Below, piece by piece: positions 90 to 5,161 of a DNA stretch of 64,000 nucleotides (its first letter is position 1; every line of letters begins with the position of its first letter). The notes beneath the pieces were generated by a model. The model saw nothing but the letters and a program-made list of their open reading frames with translations, did not search any database and was not told the origin of the DNA. Source of the stretch: Escherichia phage arall; the sequence record MN850584.1, one strand, 5' to 3'. Both the position numbers and the translations under genes were made by a program.

Positions 90-110
90 TAAGTAAGCCA
101 GCAAATAAAA

Positions 111-133
111 ACCCGCTTCGGCGGGTTTTCTTG
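111..133 (+). terminator. Rho-independent terminator (ACCCGC-TTCG-GCGGGT + TTTCTT)
   Basis: GC stem with tetraloop followed by T-run; identical copy at 25028-25049. Confidence 0.75.
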
Positions 134-166: not shown

Positions 167-1360
167 ATGGCAGCACCAAAATCATGGGAACAATATAAAG
201 AAGAGTGTCAACCTATTGCGAATAATAAAGGGATTGAGATCCTAGGATATGTTGAACCGTTTATAGGTTGTGATACGAAAATGATTCTACGCTGTAGGCA
301 GGAACATGAATGGAAGACTTGTAGTATTAGTAATTTCAAGCACGGTAACAGTTGTCCTATCTGTTCTGGTAAGAAGCCGTTAACATGGGAAACAGAATTG
401 CCGATCTTGGAAGAGATAGCACAGAAGAAGGGGTATCAGGTGTTAGGGTACGTTGGAGAATGGAAAGGGAATAAAACAAAACTTGATTTGTTGTGCCATT
501 GTGGGAATAGATGGCAAAGTACAGCAATTCATCAATTTAAAGGCGGTCGAGGTTGTCCACAATGTAGGGGGGAGAATACAAGGAAGGCACTAACAATGTC
601 CGACGATCAACATATTGCAGATTTCTTTTCTACAGGGAAATTTAAGGAAGGCACTATCTTCACTAACACAGGAACACGGAGTAAAGGATGCAGGCATAGT
701 ATCTGGATGGTTGAATGTCCTGTTTGCTCTCATGATGAATATGTTCAAGCAGGTGTTTGTGATGGTAAATTTTACTCTGAAGGAAATAACCTTAAACGAG
801 GGTGCATTCCGTGTCGTTGTGGGAACTATCGGTATACAGAAGACCAGATCACCTATAGGGTAAAAAAGGAAGTAGAAGGGCAAGGGTATGTCTGGGTAGG
901 TTGGATCGGTAAACCGTCTAGAAGTCACGGTAAGTTTAAATATCTTTGTCTTGTGCATGGGGAACAGACAGGGAGGGCTAATAACTTATTAAGCCTCGGT
1001 CAAGGTTGTCCACAGTGTGCTGGTCATAATCAACAGCAATTATATATTAATATTGTTAAAGATAATGATATTATAGTGGCTCTTAAGTTTGGTATAGCTA
1101 AAGATAGTGATAGGCGATTAAATAGTCAAAATAGTTGTAATATGTTTTTTATGGAGCGTATTTGTTTATATGATTTTAGCACAGTGAAACAATGTAAGGC
1201 TGCTGAAAGAGCTATAAAGAAAAAATTAAAAACTGGTATTTTAACGGAAAGAGAGTTGAAAGACGGTTATACAGAAACAGTAAGTGTTTCTGATTTGGAA
1301 AATCTTCAAGAAATTATTACACAACATGGTGGCAAATTAGTATATAATAAGGAGATGTAA
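167..1360 (+). CDS. Cys-rich repeat protein with C-terminal T5orf172/GIY-YIG-like domain (putative homing-endonuclease-like)
   Basis: RBS AGGAG upstream; three ~55-aa modules each ending GCPQC/SCPIC with upstream CxC/CH pairs; C-terminal LYINIV...KFGIAKD...RRL pattern resembles T5orf172/MUG113 fold; motif recall only. Confidence 0.55.
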   Translation: MAAPKSWEQYKEECQPIANNKGIEILGYVEPFIGCDTKMILRCRQEHEWKTCSISNFKHGNSCPICSGKKPLTWETELPILEEIAQKKGYQVLGYVGEWKGNKTKLDLLCHCGNRWQSTAIHQFKGGRGCPQCRGENTRKALTMSDDQHIADFFSTGKFKEGTIFTNTGTRSKGCRHSIWMVECPVCSHDEYVQAGVCDGKFYSEGNNLKRGCIPCRCGNYRYTEDQITYRVKKEVEGQGYVWVGWIGKPSRSHGKFKYLCLVHGEQTGRANNLLSLGQGCPQCAGHNQQQLYINIVKDNDIIVALKFGIAKDSDRRLNSQNSCNMFFMERICLYDFSTVKQCKAAERAIKKKLKTGILTERELKDGYTETVSVSDLENLQEIITQHGGKLVYNKEM

Positions 1361-1912
1361 ATGCGGATTACTGATAAGTATGTGTTCTTCTTTTCGGCAA
1401 AAGATGAATTTAGCAACTGGTATCTATCATCTTTTATTGAACCTTTAGCTCCCAAGTATAATAATTCTATCACAAGTTCTGTCGAATTTACTTGTGTGGA
1501 ACAATATATGATGTGGAGAAAAGCATGTTTGTTTTATGATTACAATATTGCATCTTCTATTTTAACCGGAGATCTAAGATATACAGGAGAAAAAGAACAA
1601 GCATATTATAAGCGACTAGGTAGATTAGTTAAAGATTATGATGAAGACACCTGGACTTCTTTACGGGAGAAGATTGTCAAACGTGGTTTGTATCTTAAAT
1701 ACACACAAAATGAAGATCTCAAAAATAAACTTATTGCTTACGCAGATAAGGAGTTCGTAGAGGCAAGCCCTTATGATTCTATTTATGGTATCAAAATGGG
1801 GATGTGGGATCGGGACGTGGAAAATAAGGATTGTTGGAAAGGACAAAATCTTTTAGGAAAATGGCATACAGACCTTGCTGTTTATCTAAAAACACAATCT
1901 GATATTTCCTGA
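1361..1912 (+). CDS. NADAR (YbiA/DUF1768)-family protein, putative ADP-ribose-processing hydrolase
   Basis: Start overlaps previous stop (TAAATG); N-terminal FFFSAKDEFSNW and internal EQYMMWRKA, ASPYDSIYGIKMG, GQNLLGKWH match NADAR/YbiA conserved blocks. Confidence 0.7.
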   Translation: MRITDKYVFFFSAKDEFSNWYLSSFIEPLAPKYNNSITSSVEFTCVEQYMMWRKACLFYDYNIASSILTGDLRYTGEKEQAYYKRLGRLVKDYDEDTWTSLREKIVKRGLYLKYTQNEDLKNKLIAYADKEFVEASPYDSIYGIKMGMWDRDVENKDCWKGQNLLGKWHTDLAVYLKTQSDIS

Positions 1913-2130
1913 TATTTTGAAAATTTTTATTTTTATAAAAAGGGGTGTGGTTTCATGTACGGAAATCCACCCTCTGAATAATATATCCAGAGTAAATATT
2001 ATTCTGTACTCTGTTAATAAAGTATTTAATTTGTTTGTTGGACTATGGTATCTGATCTTTAAAAGGTATACTATCTCTTAACTACTACTTATAACAGAAC
2101 AGTAAAATCATTTTTATAAAAAGGATAAAA

Positions 2131-2327
2131 TTATTTAAAGTTTTTACAGATTTTTGGATACAAATTTTGAAAATGAAAAGTTCAAGTTTGGTCAAAATTA
2201 TTTAAAGTTTTTGTACGTATTTCTATCCAGATTTTGAAAATGAAAACTTCAATTTTTTAAAAATTCCCCAGTTTATTTAAAGTTTTTTTGCCTTTTTCCG
2301 TAGAAAAATCAAAAATGAAAAGTTCAA
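2131..2327. repeat. Three direct repeats (~55 bp units: TTATTTAAAGTTTTT...TTTTGAAAATGAAAAGTTCAA)
   Basis: Units start at 2131, 2208 and 2273; each ends with TTGAA-N9-TTCAA inverted motif. Confidence 0.8.
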
Positions 2328-2352
2328 TTTCGTGTTTTTATGGGTGTGCGGA

Positions 2353-2409
2353 TGATAATCATTCTCACTAAGAGAATGAGAATCATTAGCAAATGAGAAT
2401 TTTTCTCAT
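2353..2409. promoter_or_regulatory. Cluster of GATAAT/GAGAAT palindromes (TGATAATCATTCTC; GAGAATGAGAATCATT; ATGAGAA-TTT-TTCTCAT)
   Basis: Perfect 7-3-7 inverted repeat at 2393-2409 plus overlapping dyads; same TGATAATCATTCT motif recurs at 12237, 12295, 13148. Confidence 0.6.
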
Positions 2410-2672
2410 TTAGAGAATAACGCGCAGGGGTGGTGTTTGTCTCGCGCTCCCGTGTCCCCTCGCCATACAATAAGAATAGCATAACCAACAACAAAAGCAA
2501 GCGATTATTTTTATCTTTACATTTCTTTACAAATTTATTTTAGACGAGCTACCGGCGATCAACCTTCCAACCAGTGCCCCCTGGTATGTTAGCCCCGCCT
2601 TTACGCCGTGGGGGTGGCGTTTCCTCTTCTGTATGTAAAACAGTATAAGCCCGATCCCTGGGCTTGTCAAGA

Positions 2673-2939
2673 TTATTTTTTGTTTTCTTGCCAGGATAGG
2701 ACACCTAACCAAAAATACATGTCGCCCCGCGCCCCTGGCGGGATCTTGCTTTCCCCGCCGCCACTGCAAGCCCATAGATAACCATTTACGAACGTATCAA
2801 AGTGATCTATCTCTTCCACCTTATGATTGCCCAGGTTGAGAACGGTTTCAACCTTTAAGCCCGTTGCGCTTGCTACCTGGTGCACCGTGCCGCCTTGCCA
2901 GCCCAATGAGTGCATGAGGTGTAAAGTAGTATTTGTCAT
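2673..2939 (-). CDS. Hypothetical protein in GC-rich island
   Basis: 88-aa ORF (MTNTTLHLMHSLGWQGGTVHQV...) with upstream minus-strand promoter-like TTGCTA-17-TATTAT and AAAGGG RBS; local GC clearly higher than flanks. Confidence 0.4.
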   Translation of the reverse strand: MTNTTLHLMHSLGWQGGTVHQVASATGLKVETVLNLGNHKVEEIDHFDTFVNGYLWACSGGGESKIPPGARGDMYFWLGVLSWQENKK

Positions 2940-2985
2940 GGTATCGCCCTTTCTTTGATGTGCGCCCTGGTTGGCGCGGTAGAAA

Positions 2986-3015
2986 GATAATAGCCCTTTC
3001 CTTTATAGATAGCAA
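2986..3015 (-). promoter_or_regulatory. Sigma70-like promoter (TTGCTA-17-TATTAT) for 2673..2939
   Basis: Consensus-like hexamers on minus strand, divergent from + strand promoter at 3056. Confidence 0.4.
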
Positions 3016-3084: not shown

Positions 3085-3211
3085 TCATCTTGTCGAGGGG
3101 GGCGAGGCACAACGACAATAAACAAAAGGAGGGCGCAATGTAGGACGGGCAAAGGTGAGGATCTCCATAATCCACCGTCACAATAACATTACTTATAAAA
3201 GGTTGATAACG

Positions 3212-3307
3212 ATGATCAAGAAAGAAAACAGCTTGACGGTTGGAACGATTAACGCTATCATTCTAGCCGTTCCATTTTGGGTTGTAGTAGCGGTTATTAT
3301 CTTTTAA
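3212..3307 (+). CDS. Small hydrophobic peptide (31 aa, MIKKENSLTVGTINAIILAVPFWVVVAVIIF)
   Basis: ATG with AAAGG upstream, single predicted TM helix. Confidence 0.3.
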   Translation: MIKKENSLTVGTINAIILAVPFWVVVAVIIF

Positions 3308-3315
3308 AAATATTC

Positions 3316-3371
3316 TTGACAACGTTTTTTAATCTGATAAGATGTATCACATAGGGCGGCAATAGTGCCGC
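3316..3371 (+). promoter_or_regulatory. Early promoter cassette: TTGACA-16-TAAGAT + 5' hairpin GCGGCA-ATAG-TGCCGC
   Basis: Conserved module CAC-ATAGGGCGG-hairpin then AACAGAAGAGA leader and ATG at 3396. Confidence 0.7.
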
Positions 3372-3395
3372 TCATAACAGAAGAGAGAAATAATC

Positions 3396-3668
3396 ATGGC
3401 ATCATATAGCGCATCAATGATCGTAATGGGTATCACTGGTAAACCTATGCGCGGTGGCGGATCTTTCGCTAACATCAATATTGATGGGCGTTTATCCCTG
3501 GATGCAGCGATCACCGTGGCACGGGAAACATTTAAAAAAGAATGTAATTTCAATAAACAAGATTATCTCGGTTTCGCTATTGAAAAAACCGCGCGCTTTG
3601 TTGATTATAAAAGCCCGAAAATGGTTGATACTACACTAAAAGCGCAAGATGTAGCATTTTTGCTTTAA
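3396..3668 (+). CDS. Hypothetical early protein (90 aa)
   Basis: ORF directly downstream of promoter-hairpin cassette with A/G-rich RBS. Confidence 0.6.
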   Translation: MASYSASMIVMGITGKPMRGGGSFANINIDGRLSLDAAITVARETFKKECNFNKQDYLGFAIEKTARFVDYKSPKMVDTTLKAQDVAFLL

Positions 3669-3671
3669 GGC

Positions 3672-3732
3672 TTGACACTGAAAAATAATTTGGTAATATA
3701 TACTACATAGGGCGGGGAAATGGTTTCCCGCC
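3672..3732 (+). promoter_or_regulatory. Early promoter cassette: TTGACA-16-TAATAT + hairpin GCGGGGAAA-TGG-TTTCCCGC
   Basis: Same module as 3316. Confidence 0.7.
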
Positions 3733-3754
3733 AAATCAAAGAAAGGGTAACACA

Positions 3755-4117
3755 ATGAGCAAGCAAATCAATACTATCATGTTAAACCTGGTATCTTTCC
3801 GCGACGACGTGAAAAATCTTCCACGTGATGCAGTGGATGCACGTATCGAAAGCTATCGCTCACAGATCGCAACGCTACCGCTAAAACGTGATCAACATGC
3901 CGCTAATATGATGCTTAATGCTATGCTTAAAAAGATGATTCAATGTGATCTTACCCTGGCTTATGAATATGCTGGCGATCTCTTTGTAACATATAGCAAG
4001 CCCGTACCAGGTATGAGCACAACCGAAGAATTGCATGCCTTAAATCTGCGACAAGATGCATGGGATAACATGCGCCGTGTTATGGTATGGGTAGAAAGCG
4101 GTAAAATTTACGAATAA
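3755..4117 (+). CDS. Hypothetical early protein (120 aa)
   Basis: ORF after cassette, RBS AAGGG. Confidence 0.6.
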   Translation: MSKQINTIMLNLVSFRDDVKNLPRDAVDARIESYRSQIATLPLKRDQHAANMMLNAMLKKMIQCDLTLAYEYAGDLFVTYSKPVPGMSTTEELHALNLRQDAWDNMRRVMVWVESGKIYE

Positions 4118-4123
4118 AAACGG

Positions 4124-4176
4124 TTGACATTGCACTAAAACCTGATAAGCTATCTTAAAGCGGGAATAGTTCCCGC
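4124..4176 (+). promoter_or_regulatory. Early promoter cassette: TTGACA-16-TAAGCT + hairpin GCGGGAA-TAG-TTCCCGC
   Basis: Module variant with compensatory stem. Confidence 0.65.
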
Positions 4177-4195
4177 TTACATAGGATAAAACTTT

Positions 4196-4342
4196 ATGAA
4201 ACAATATGTAATGAGTATTCACACCAAAAACGGCGCTACTGTTACGACTCCGGCACGGTTTGCACTTGTAAACCGTTGCAAGAGACTAAAACGAGAGCTA
4301 AAAAACAACCGTGCAACGGGCTTTAAACGCTGGGGAGGATAA
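4196..4342 (+). CDS. Small basic protein (48 aa)
   Basis: ATG 20 nt after hairpin; stop precedes GGAGG RBS of next ORF. Confidence 0.45.
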   Translation: MKQYVMSIHTKNGATVTTPARFALVNRCKRLKRELKNNRATGFKRWGG

Positions 4343-4344
4343 TC

Positions 4345-4605
4345 TTGTTTTTTCTAAAAGTTTTTGATAATGTGATCGCTTTTGAACATGCTGCAACGTT
4401 CAACCTGGCGAGATACGCTATCAGGTTTAAAGATAATGTTTATCCCCGTGCTGGTGGCGGTTACACTATCTTTAATCATCGTAACGCTCAATTAACGGAT
4501 ATAACGAATCCAGATCCTGGAGTGTATCGCATAGGTTGGCTACCGTCAAAAGACGCGGCAAGCATGTTTAAGGTATGTAAACTACTAACAGAAGAGGCAA
4601 ATTAG
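4345..4605 (+). CDS. Hypothetical protein (86 aa), probable TTG start
   Basis: GGAGGA 6 nt upstream of TTG at 4345; no in-frame ATG near RBS. Confidence 0.5.
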   Translation: MFFLKVFDNVIAFEHAATFNLARYAIRFKDNVYPRAGGGYTIFNHRNAQLTDITNPDPGVYRIGWLPSKDAASMFKVCKLLTEEAN

Positions 4606-4606
4606 C

Positions 4607-5161
4607 ATGGGGCGTGAGTATGTGATCCAGTCCTGGGTAAAGCATGACGCTAATGATCCGCGCATAATACCAGATGACATGATCGATCACATGGTAGGGT
4701 ATAGCGGGGAGCAGATAGGAAATCGAGCGGCAAAGAGCAACGGCAACACAAAGGCGCGATCCGTTCGCCCTGGTTGGCTGGCAAATGGTAACGCTGACAT
4801 TACAAGCGCCGCAGATCCAAGCGATGACGCTAAAAATAATCCCTTATACAGCATTGATCCGGCTTTTAAGGTGTTAGAAGAATATCCCGCTAAATTAGCC
4901 GCACTAGATAAAGCATACGAAGAAAAACGGGTGGCATGGACTGTATACAACACCGCTAAAATGGTGCTAGATGCAAAATTGATTAAAGCCCAGGAGAAGA
5001 TCAATAAACTTGTTACCATAGCGCAAGAGGAAGACCAGGACGACCAGGAGGAAGAGGAAGAAATCATGCCTATCCTGGAAGAGGAAGAGATCCAGCCATA
5101 CATGCCGACGGAAGAGGAAAAAAGACAAGCCTTAAAAAATTACGAAAATTGTATTGTGTAA
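4607..5161 (+). CDS. Hypothetical protein with strongly acidic C-terminal tail (EDQDDQEEEEEIMPILEEEEIQ)
   Basis: Start overlaps previous stop (TAGCATG); 184 aa. Confidence 0.6.
   Translation: MGREYVIQSWVKHDANDPRIIPDDMIDHMVGYSGEQIGNRAAKSNGNTKARSVRPGWLANGNADITSAADPSDDAKNNPLYSIDPAFKVLEEYPAKLAALDKAYEEKRVAWTVYNTAKMVLDAKLIKAQEKINKLVTIAQEEDQDDQEEEEEIMPILEEEEIQPYMPTEEEKRQALKNYENCIV

What the first reader, a model, noticed from the sequence alone, without database searches (positions are those of the whole stretch)
167..1360. Triple Cys-rich module protein with a T5orf172-like tail
Three tandem modules of about 55 aa each end in GCPQC or SCPIC and carry upstream Cys/His pairs, suggesting repeated zinc-binding units. 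They are fused to a C-terminal region resembling T5orf172/GIY-YIG. This may be an unusual multi-zinc-finger homing endonuclease or DNA-binding regulator.
Basis: partly seen in the sequence, partly recalled or inferred. Interest (0 to 1): 0.45.

Follow-up and report, generated by a model that had tools for sequence, protein, structure and literature searches.

The report
Phage zinc-finger T5orf172 endonuclease gene
This is an ordinary, already catalogued phage gene: a probable site-specific DNA-cutting enzyme of the T5orf172 (GIY-YIG-like) family, steered by four CapR-type zinc-finger DNA-binding modules, an architecture published for phage homing endonucleases in 2021-2023.

Summary
The ORF at 167..1360 (+), 397 aa, is real. 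It is 100% identical to the RefSeq 'endonuclease' of Escherichia phage vB_vPM_PD06 (Justusliebigvirus, phi92-like).

The Cys-rich region holds four modules, not three. Each one passes Pfam's CapR homology domain (PF21817) threshold on its own.

Repeated CapR/DUF723/DUF4379 zinc fingers joined to T5orf172 is the architecture described by Netter 2021 and Barth 2023.

Local detail:
- The gene fills the same ATPase-to-NADAR slot in apparently all Justusliebigvirus records; no empty site was found.
- The flanks are 97-100% identical between relatives, while the finger array is a mosaic of old alleles (48-98% nt identity).
- Alleles carry 3, 4 or 5 modules, and one 3-module allele is an in-register fusion of modules 1 and 2.

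The most likely function is sequence-specific DNA cleavage. Whether the gene still homes or has been co-opted is untested. Novelty: already known. Interest: low.

The parts
167..1360 (+). Complete gene, 397 aa plus stop: a CapR x4 - T5orf172 endonuclease
   Evidence: ORF list. Pfam CapR E=1.1e-38 and T5orf172 22.1 bits. PHROG 681 'endonuclease' E=4e-84. 100% identical to NC_052653 YP_009984622 'endonuclease'.
108..132 (+). Terminator-like hairpin (CCCGC-TTCG-GCGGG plus T-run) after the upstream ATPase gene (stop at 90-92). The AGGAG ribosome-binding site follows at 156-160.
   Evidence: Sequence read directly. RNA fold of 93-166 gives -18 kcal/mol with this stem. The consensus scanner did not list it.
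167..364 (+). Module 1 (aa 1-66), type A CapR zinc module. Candidate ligands C43, H47 (or C52), C63 and C66; ends in SCPIC.
   Evidence: Alone it scores 32.1 bits on PF21817, aa 10-67. C63 and C66 are invariant and C43 is conserved in >=90% of 25 four-module homologues. Modelled as helix + 3 strands + short helix at pLDDT 90-94.
365..565 (+). Module 2 (aa 67-133), type A CapR zinc module. Ligands C110, C112, C130 and C133; ends in GCPQC.
   Evidence: Alone it scores 56.6 bits on PF21817, aa 80-133. C110, C130 and C133 are invariant.
566..820 (+). It has CxxC (C184, C187) ... CxC (C216, C218), which is the published CapR motif. C213 is not conserved in the family.
   Evidence: Alone it scores 47.8 bits on PF21817, aa 157-219. 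W180, C184, P185, C187, D190, C216, R217 and C218 are invariant. The motif is described in PMC8096241.
821..1018 (+). Module 4 (aa 219-284), a type A' CapR module that always abuts the nuclease domain. Ligands C261, H264, C281 and C284; ends in GCPQC.
   Evidence: Alone it scores 29.3 bits on PF21817, aa 227-285. C261, H264, C281 and C284 are invariant.
1019..1357 (+). T5orf172 nuclease domain (aa 285-397) with a GIY-YIG-like fold. Conserved Y293, K307-F-G309, R317, E347 and D366-G-Y-T-E370-T.
1361..1912 (+). Downstream NADAR/YbiA-like gene. Its ATG follows the endonuclease TAA directly (TAAATG), so the two genes are probably co-transcribed. It is a neighbour, not part of the enzyme.
   Evidence: PF08719 E=2.5e-36 and TIGR02464 E=1.4e-31. 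The ATPase - endonuclease - NADAR order was seen in all 5 Justusliebigvirus genomes inspected.

Best explanation
The gene encodes a free-standing, homing-endonuclease-type enzyme of the T5orf172/CapR family.

Four independently folded zinc-knuckle modules are joined by flexible linkers. Two are type A, one is type B, and one (type A') sits next to the nuclease. Together they would read an extended DNA sequence. They tether a C-terminal GIY-YIG-superfamily catalytic domain that cuts the DNA nearby. R317 and E347 are the counterparts of the catalytic Arg and the metal-binding Glu; Y293 is the 'GIY' tyrosine.

In the phi92-like phages the gene occupies a fixed slot between an AAA-ATPase gene and a NADAR gene. 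Its target specificity is diversified by recombination between modules and between alleles, through module swaps and in-register module loss or gain.

Shown here: the domain identities, the fold, the conserved residues, the fixed locus, and the mosaic, variable-number array. Inferred: zinc binding, DNA binding, cleavage, and any homing or gene-drive behaviour.
For: Domains:
- Four CapR domains each exceed the Pfam gathering score.
- T5orf172 exceeds its gathering score.
- PHROG 681 'endonuclease', E=4e-84.

Fold:
- The tail model has pLDDT 94.7.
- The best PDB matches for both models are GIY-YIG nucleases.
- The full-length model has pLDDT 88 but pTM 0.46, with confidence dips at aa 61-70, 131-140 and 281-290. 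This fits beads on a string.

Conservation:
- All proposed Zn ligands are invariant or >=90% conserved, except the second ligand of each N-terminal knuckle in modules 1 and 2 (H47 or C52; C112), which varies between alleles.
- The catalytic-type residues are conserved in >=90% of 96 aligned sequences, down to about 20% identity.
- The nuclease domain is under purifying selection, omega 0.22-0.36.

Family biology from the literature:
- Cys-to-Ser changes in CapR abolish DNA binding (PMC8096241).
- The T5orf172 protein Odn cleaves DNA in vitro, and E180A, the I-TevI E75 counterpart, kills it (PMC8263062).
- Repeated CapR/DUF723/DUF4379 fingers plus T5orf172 is the common HEG layout, with recombination between repeats (PMC10448857).

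Local evolution:
- Flanks are 97-100% nt identical, the nuclease domain 91-99%, and the array 48-98% in blocks.
- dS is saturated in some modules against 0.04-0.11 in the flanks.
- Alleles have 3, 4 or 5 modules.
- SD2 module 1 is a phi92-type M1 joined to an M2 type, with the crossover in the shared GxWKG segment.
Against: - No relative with an empty site was found. 55 records carry the near-identical ATPase and 55 carry the near-identical nuclease domain. All 7 genomes inspected have the gene in the slot. The sporadic distribution expected of an actively homing gene is therefore not seen.
- The link to canonical GIY-YIG is weak at sequence level. PF01541 was not reported, and the best PDB sequence hit has E about 1.
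- The T5orf172 score is only just above threshold.
- No solved structure matches the CapR modules, so their zinc sites rest on conservation alone.
- No activity, target or metal content was measured for this protein.
Confidence: 0.8

Rival explanations
1. The gene is a co-opted weapon rather than a selfish element. It began as a homing endonuclease and is now kept by the phage as a specificity-switching nuclease against competing phages or satellites, in the manner of ICP1 Odn. The zinc-finger array would be diversified to follow changing targets.
For: - The gene is fixed at one locus across the genus, and a homologue follows the ATPase gene in the two Phapecoctavirus genomes inspected.
- The nuclease domain is under purifying selection, while the array is a mosaic of old alleles.
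- Phages Muut, Inny and Mt1B1_P17 of the same subfamily carry separate RepA_N-T5orf172 genes proposed to be anti-satellite nucleases (PMC10448857).
- Odn gives an experimental precedent.
Against: - The DNA-binding part is the generic CapR array of ordinary HEGs, not a domain captured from a satellite such as RepA_N.
- There is no PADLOC or defence-family match.
- Fixation can equally be the end stage of a homing cycle.
- No target was identified.
Confidence: 0.2
2. The protein is a sequence-specific DNA-binding regulator, such as a repressor like PLE CapR. Its T5orf172 tail would no longer cut DNA.
For: - CapR itself is a transcriptional repressor derived from this family (PMC8096241).
- GIY-YIG homing endonucleases such as I-TevI are known from the literature to autorepress. 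This is my own knowledge and was not tested here.
Against: - CapR lacks the nuclease domain, whereas here it is retained.
- Y293, R317, E347 and E370 are conserved in >=90% of 96 aligned sequences.
- The domain has omega 0.22-0.36 and models with high confidence as GIY-YIG.
Confidence: 0.07
3. The cysteine pattern is a chance or compositional feature, or the ORF is not a real gene.
For: None found.
Against: - E-values of 1e-7 to 3e-15 per module.
- 118 homologues at E<=1e-5.
- Strict conservation of the Cys/His positions.
- The gene is annotated in many phage genomes.
Confidence: 0.01

Closest known systems
T5orf172-family putative homing endonucleases of Vibrio phage ICP1 (e.g. tcgB/gp130, gp165, gp174) and other phages (Barth, Dunham & Seed 2023, PMC10448857)
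   Same: - The architecture is the same: N-terminal CapR-type Zn-finger module(s) plus a C-terminal T5orf172 domain.
- The size is similar: tcgB is 396 aa.
- The nuclease domain is 41% identical over 118 aa, E=8e-26.
- Pfam gives CapR plus T5orf172 for both.
- Module-number changes arise by recombination between repeats, as reported for gp174*.
   Different: - This gene has four recognisable CapR modules, against one Pfam-detected module in tcgB.
- It sits next to an AAA-ATPase and a NADAR gene, not next to terminase, capsid or nrd genes.
- It is single-copy in the PD06 genome, whereas ICP1 carries many copies.
- It appears fixed in its genus and not sporadic.
CapR, capsid-operon repressor of the V. 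cholerae satellite PLE (Netter et al. 2021, PMC8096241)
   Same: It shares the homologous Zn-finger DNA-binding domain (Pfam PF21817 is named after CapR). Module 3 here carries the same CxxC...CxC cysteine motif.
   Different: CapR is a stand-alone DNA-binding repressor without a nuclease domain. This protein has four modules and keeps an apparently intact T5orf172 domain.
Odn (ICP1 gp88), origin-directed nuclease (Barth et al. 2021, PMC8263062)
   Same: Both have a C-terminal T5orf172 catalytic domain with the conserved Arg and Glu. Odn is the experimental proof that this domain cuts DNA at sites chosen by the N-terminal DNA-binding domain.
   Different: Odn uses a RepA_N domain captured from the satellite, not CapR zinc fingers. 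Its anti-satellite role is established, whereas no target is known here.
I-TevI and other GIY-YIG homing endonucleases; SLX1/HIGLE GIY-YIG nucleases
   Same: - The modular 'catalytic domain + linker + DNA-binding modules including a zinc finger' logic is the same.
   Different: - The domain order is reversed: the nuclease is C-terminal here and N-terminal in I-TevI.
- The second motif is K-F-G where canonical enzymes have Y-I-G.
- There is no significant sequence match to PF01541 or to PDB GIY-YIG chains.
- The gene is not intron-encoded.

Membership tests
CapR homology domain (Pfam PF21817) | Profile match above the curated gathering score (24.2 bits) | tested here: met
   The whole protein scores 131.7 bits with 4 stretches. 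Each module alone scores 32.1, 56.6, 47.8 and 29.3 bits.
CapR homology domain (Pfam PF21817) | Four conserved Cys in a CxxC ... CxC arrangement (Netter 2021) | tested here: met
   Module 3 has C184-x2-C187 ... C216-x-C218, all invariant in 25 homologues. Modules 1, 2 and 4 carry a variant: CxC, Cx2H or Cx3H, followed by CPxC.
CapR homology domain (Pfam PF21817) | Zinc-dependent sequence-specific DNA binding | not testable with these tools
   Needs metal analysis and EMSA. Only conservation and the family precedent are available.
T5orf172 domain (Pfam PF10544, GIY-YIG clan) | Profile match above the curated gathering score (20 bits) | tested here: met
   22.1 bits on the whole protein and 25.1 bits on the isolated tail. 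The margin is narrow. The related MUG113 profile is sub-threshold.
T5orf172 domain (Pfam PF10544, GIY-YIG clan) | GIY-YIG-like beta-beta-alpha-beta-alpha fold | tested here: met
   [not shown]
T5orf172 domain (Pfam PF10544, GIY-YIG clan) | Conserved catalytic Arg and metal-binding Glu (I-TevI R27/E75; Odn E180) | tested here: met
   R317 and E347 are invariant in alignment A3 and in the 25-sequence alignment, and conserved in >=90% of 96 aligned sequences. They align to the conserved R and E of the GIY-YIG protein BH0048, but in a weak alignment with E about 1.
T5orf172 domain (Pfam PF10544, GIY-YIG clan) | Endonuclease activity | not testable with these tools
   Shown only for Odn, a member of the same family.
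Canonical GIY-YIG catalytic domain (Pfam PF01541) | Sequence-profile match to the canonical family | tested here: not met
   PF01541 is not among the Pfam hits at E<=1. Profile searches of PDB sequences give only BH0048 at E=0.64 and 1.2. The protein shares the fold and superfamily but is not a canonical family member.
Homing endonuclease gene (mobile, selfish) | Sporadic presence/absence among close relatives, with an intact empty site | tested here: not met
   55 records hold the >=95%-identical ATPase and 55 hold the >=80%-identical nuclease domain. All 7 inspected genomes carry a homologue in the slot. The counts were matched, not paired record by record.
Homing endonuclease gene (mobile, selfish) | Cleaves a site at or near its own insertion point in genomes lacking it, and is copied there by repair | not testable with these tools
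   Needs cleavage mapping and co-infection crosses.
DUF4379 / DUF723 treble-clef zinc fingers (PF14311, PF05265) | Profile match above the gathering score | tested here: inconclusive
   DUF4379 scores 22.3 bits against a 24.5 cut-off, and DUF723 scores 13.1 against 20.9. Homologues carry precomputed PF05265/PF14311 hits, and the alia allele reaches 28.7 bits on DUF723. These are related profiles that overlap CapR.

The most novel reading that the evidence does not exclude
The gene may be more than a decaying selfish element. It could be a permanently resident, specificity-switching nuclease locus of the phi92-like and phAPEC8-like phages.

The nuclease domain and the B + A' modules form a constant core. 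The N-terminal finger modules are drawn from an old pool of alleles kept by balancing or diversifying selection. Different alleles would then cut different rivals: co-infecting phages carrying other alleles, or satellites. On this reading the locus is an allele-against-allele exclusion system, not a classical presence/absence homing drive.
Probability: 0.2. Interest if true: 0.5.

Novelty: already known. Interest (0 to 1): 0.15.

Why it matters
Taken at face value it matters little. The protein is already in RefSeq as 'endonuclease' and in UniRef as 'CapR homology domain-containing protein', both domains are in Pfam, and the architecture and its recombination-driven evolution are published.

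Its modest value is as a clean natural series. Near-identical genomes carry 3-, 4- and 5-finger alleles with swapped modules on a constant nuclease. That series could be used to work out the DNA-recognition code of CapR fingers. It could also test whether fixed T5orf172 genes still drive their own inheritance or have become weapons in phage-phage or phage-satellite conflict.

Tried and rejected
- **Paralogues in the window.** tblastn of the protein against all 64 kb found only the gene itself.
- **NCBIfam and PADLOC.** Neither gave a hit for the endonuclease.
- **Sequence link to solved GIY-YIG structures.** Two profile searches of PDB sequences returned only BH0048 at E 0.64 and 1.2, which is not significant.
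- **Foldseek of the full-length model against the PDB.** Nothing reached E<=0.001. The top rows were tandem dsRBD proteins at probability <=0.54, which I treat as noise or at most a hint about topology.
- **AlphaFold-database fold library.** It was not available.
- **Search for an empty site.** Neither DNA nor protein searches found a relative lacking the gene.
- **tRNA and Rfam scans of the window.** Both were empty, so the conserved non-coding stretch downstream is not a known RNA.
- **Recent tandem duplication.** Rejected, because the modules within this protein are only 24-36% identical to one another.
- **Promoter scan.** No convincing sigma-70-like promoter lies between the upstream terminator and the start codon.

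Full report
**1. The observation**

- An AGGAG ribosome-binding site lies at 156-160.
- A terminator-like hairpin lies at 108-132, behind the upstream gene (sequence, fold).

The protein has 23 Cys and 11 His. Its CxxC motifs are at aa 63, 130, 184, 213 and 281.

Scanning the pieces separately shows four modules, not three. Each alone is above the Pfam gathering score for the CapR homology domain (24.2 bits), and the tail alone scores 25.1 bits on T5orf172 (cut-off 20):

| Module | Residues matched | Score (bits) |
|---|---|---|
| 1 | aa 10-67 | 32.1 |
| 2 | aa 80-133 | 56.6 |
| 3 | aa 157-219 | 47.8 |
| 4 | aa 227-285 | 29.3 |

The missed module (unit aa 134-218) is longer than the others. 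In a 25-sequence alignment of four-module homologues it carries invariant C184, C187, C216 and C218, while C213 varies. That is the CxxC...CxC motif published for CapR. Modules 1, 2 and 4 use an N-terminal knuckle (Cx3H, CxC and Cx2H respectively) plus [GS]CPxC. The four modules are only 24-36% identical to each other, so they are old repeats.

**2. What it is**

*Family.*
- PHROG 681 'endonuclease' matches at E=4e-84.
- The window belongs to a phi92-like coliphage.
- The protein is 100% identical to the RefSeq 'endonuclease' of Escherichia phage vB_vPM_PD06 (Justusliebigvirus, Stephanstirmvirinae) and 99% identical to that of phage Eryne.
- UniRef names the alia homologue 'CapR homology domain-containing protein'.

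*Nuclease tail.*
- An AlphaFold model of aa 284-397, built on 96 aligned sequences, has pLDDT 94.7 and pTM 0.87, with topology beta-beta-alpha-beta-alpha...alpha-beta.
- Other GIY-YIG proteins appear lower in the list: EF2693, I-TevI, UvrC and PD-T4-3. The full-length model gives the same answer.
- Y293, K307, G309, R317, E347, D366, G367, E370 and T371 are conserved in at least 90% of 96 aligned sequences, down to about 20% identity.
- A weak alignment to the GIY-YIG protein BH0048 puts Y293, G309, R317 and E347 on the classical Tyr, Gly, Arg and Glu positions.
- The link to canonical GIY-YIG is not significant by sequence alone. It rests on Pfam's T5orf172 model and on the fold.

*Whole protein.* The full-length model has pLDDT 88.4 but pTM 0.46. 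Confidence dips at the inter-module linkers, aa 61-70, 131-140 and 281-290. This fits independently folded beads on a string. No solved structure resembles the CapR modules convincingly.

**3. Context and evolution**

The gene lies between an AAA-ATPase gene (Phi92_gp221) and a NADAR/YbiA-like gene. The NADAR start codon abuts the endonuclease stop codon.

*Distribution.*
- The same order is found in PD06, alia, SD2, PHB05 and phi92.
- A homologue also follows the ATPase gene in the Phapecoctavirus phages nieznany (486 aa) and tuntematon (332 aa).
- 55 phage records hold the ATPase at >=95% identity, and 55 hold the nuclease domain at >=80% identity.
- I found no relative with an empty site. 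The counts were matched, not paired record by record.

*Divergence against PD06*:

| Region | Nucleotide identity |
|---|---|
| Flanking genes | 97-100% |
| Nuclease domain | 91-99% |
| Zinc-finger array | about 48-98%, in module-sized blocks |

*Substitution rates*:
- Synonymous divergence is 0.04-0.11 in the flanks but reaches saturation in some modules.
- omega is 0.01-0.18 in the flanks and 0.22-0.36 in the nuclease domain.
- omega is 0.17-0.72 in the modules, with one small-sample value of 1.46.
- The array is therefore a mosaic of old alleles brought in by recombination, not a product of point mutation alone.

*Module number.*
- Homologue lengths cluster near 330 and 400 aa, with smaller groups near 260, 470 and above 560 aa.
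- Dissection gives n type-A modules + one type B + one type A' + nuclease, with n = 1 (SD2, tuntematon), 2 (this window, PHB05, phi92) or 3 (alia, nieznany).
- The single type-A module of SD2 is 93-100% identical to phi92 module 1 over its first 99 nt.
- Over the rest it is 96-100% identical to the module-2 type, with the crossover in the shared GxWKG segment.
- That is an in-register deletion of one module.

**4. Mechanism**

The best-supported reading is a site-specific DNA endonuclease. The four zinc modules jointly recognise an extended site, and the tethered T5orf172 domain cuts nearby.

The family precedents are experimental:
- Cys-to-Ser changes in CapR abolish DNA binding (PMC8096241).
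- The T5orf172 protein Odn cleaves its target in vitro, and the Glu-to-Ala mutant is dead (PMC8263062).

For this protein, zinc binding, DNA binding and cleavage are all inferred. Whether it still homes is open. The fixed distribution fails the presence/absence criterion. That fits either a fixed homing gene whose alleles compete, or co-option as in Odn. Phages of the same subfamily (Muut, Inny, Mt1B1_P17) carry separate RepA_N-T5orf172 genes proposed to be anti-satellite nucleases. A purely regulatory role is unlikely, given the conserved catalytic residues.

**5. Comparison with the known**

The architecture, the class-V-repeat interpretation and the recombination between repeats are all described by Barth, Dunham and Seed 2023.
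- In that survey, 200 of 229 T5orf172 HEGs carried at least one CapR, DUF723 or DUF4379 (printed as DUF4397 in the paper) zinc-finger domain, and many carried several.
- The ICP1 gene tcgB (396 aa, 'putative homing endonuclease') is 41% identical to this protein over the nuclease domain, E=8e-26.

The differences here are minor: four recognisable modules, a neighbourhood of ATPase and NADAR genes instead of terminase or capsid genes, a single copy per genome, and fixation in the genus.

**6. Verdict**

The feature is already known and already annotated, so interest is low (0.15). The only mildly novel possibility left open is that this is a fixed, specificity-switching nuclease locus used in conflicts between phages or with satellites (probability about 0.2).

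Noticed in passing
window 1361-1912 (+): A NADAR/YbiA-like gene starts directly after the endonuclease stop codon (TAAATG). It matches PF08719 at E=2.5e-36, TIGR02464 at E=1.4e-31, the candidate defence model PADLOC PDC-M42C at E=1.5e-34, and weakly the NCBIfam 'NADAR family anti-phage protein'. Its role in the phage is unknown.
   Followed up: partly
window 2127-2331: Three direct repeats of about 63 nt lie at 67-75 nt spacing (71-83% identical to the reference copy) inside a 24% GC stretch (about 1950-2400) with no long ORF. Relatives muut and alia annotate 'repeat_region' at the equivalent place. They look like iterons and could mark an origin or a packaging region. This was not tested.
   Followed up: no
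window 2391-3000: GC content jumps to 45-52%. This block is 92-95% nt identical in Phapecoctavirus genomes whose neighbouring ATPase gene is only about 70% identical. It contains the 88-aa ORF 2673-2939 (-), which matches Phi92_gp224 in size and position. No tRNA or Rfam family matches. Why it is so conserved is unexplained.
   Followed up: partly
window 3315-3359 and 3671-3715: Two copies of a 45-nt element, 71% identical. Each holds a sigma-70-like promoter (TTGACA, 16 nt, TAAGAT or TAATAT, with TG) followed by ACATAGGGCGG. They are probably a repeated phage promoter with a shared downstream box.
   Followed up: no
phage database records: Records labelled Campylobacter phage A150, A110a and C3 match this E. 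coli phage locus at about 92-96% nt identity. Records labelled Pseudomonas phage PsgM04F and Acinetobacter phage ABPW7 match part of it at about 71-91%, like the Phapecoctavirus coliphages. The host labels look doubtful, possibly through contamination or mislabelling.
   Followed up: no
window 167-1018 (CapR modules), model m1606abe96960: Each CapR module is predicted as a long helix, then three short strands, a short helix and the CPxC knuckle. The non-significant top Foldseek hits were tandem dsRBD proteins (TARBP2, DRB4, PKR, ADAR2), which share an alpha-beta-beta-beta-alpha layout. No solved structure of a CapR domain was found.
   Followed up: partly
L008 1637-4609 (Vibrio phage ICP1 2017_Dha_A): The ICP1 homologue tcgB sits immediately upstream of a large-terminase gene that is annotated in two pieces: terL 2824-2925 and terL 3179-4609. 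This fits the reported tendency of these genes to lie in or beside essential genes.
   Followed up: no
L005 2703-2900 (Escherichia phage SD2): The first module of the 3-module SD2 allele is an in-register fusion. Its first 99 nt match phi92-type module 1 and the rest matches the module-2 type, with the crossover in the conserved GxWKG-coding segment. One 67-codon unit is deleted.
   Followed up: yes
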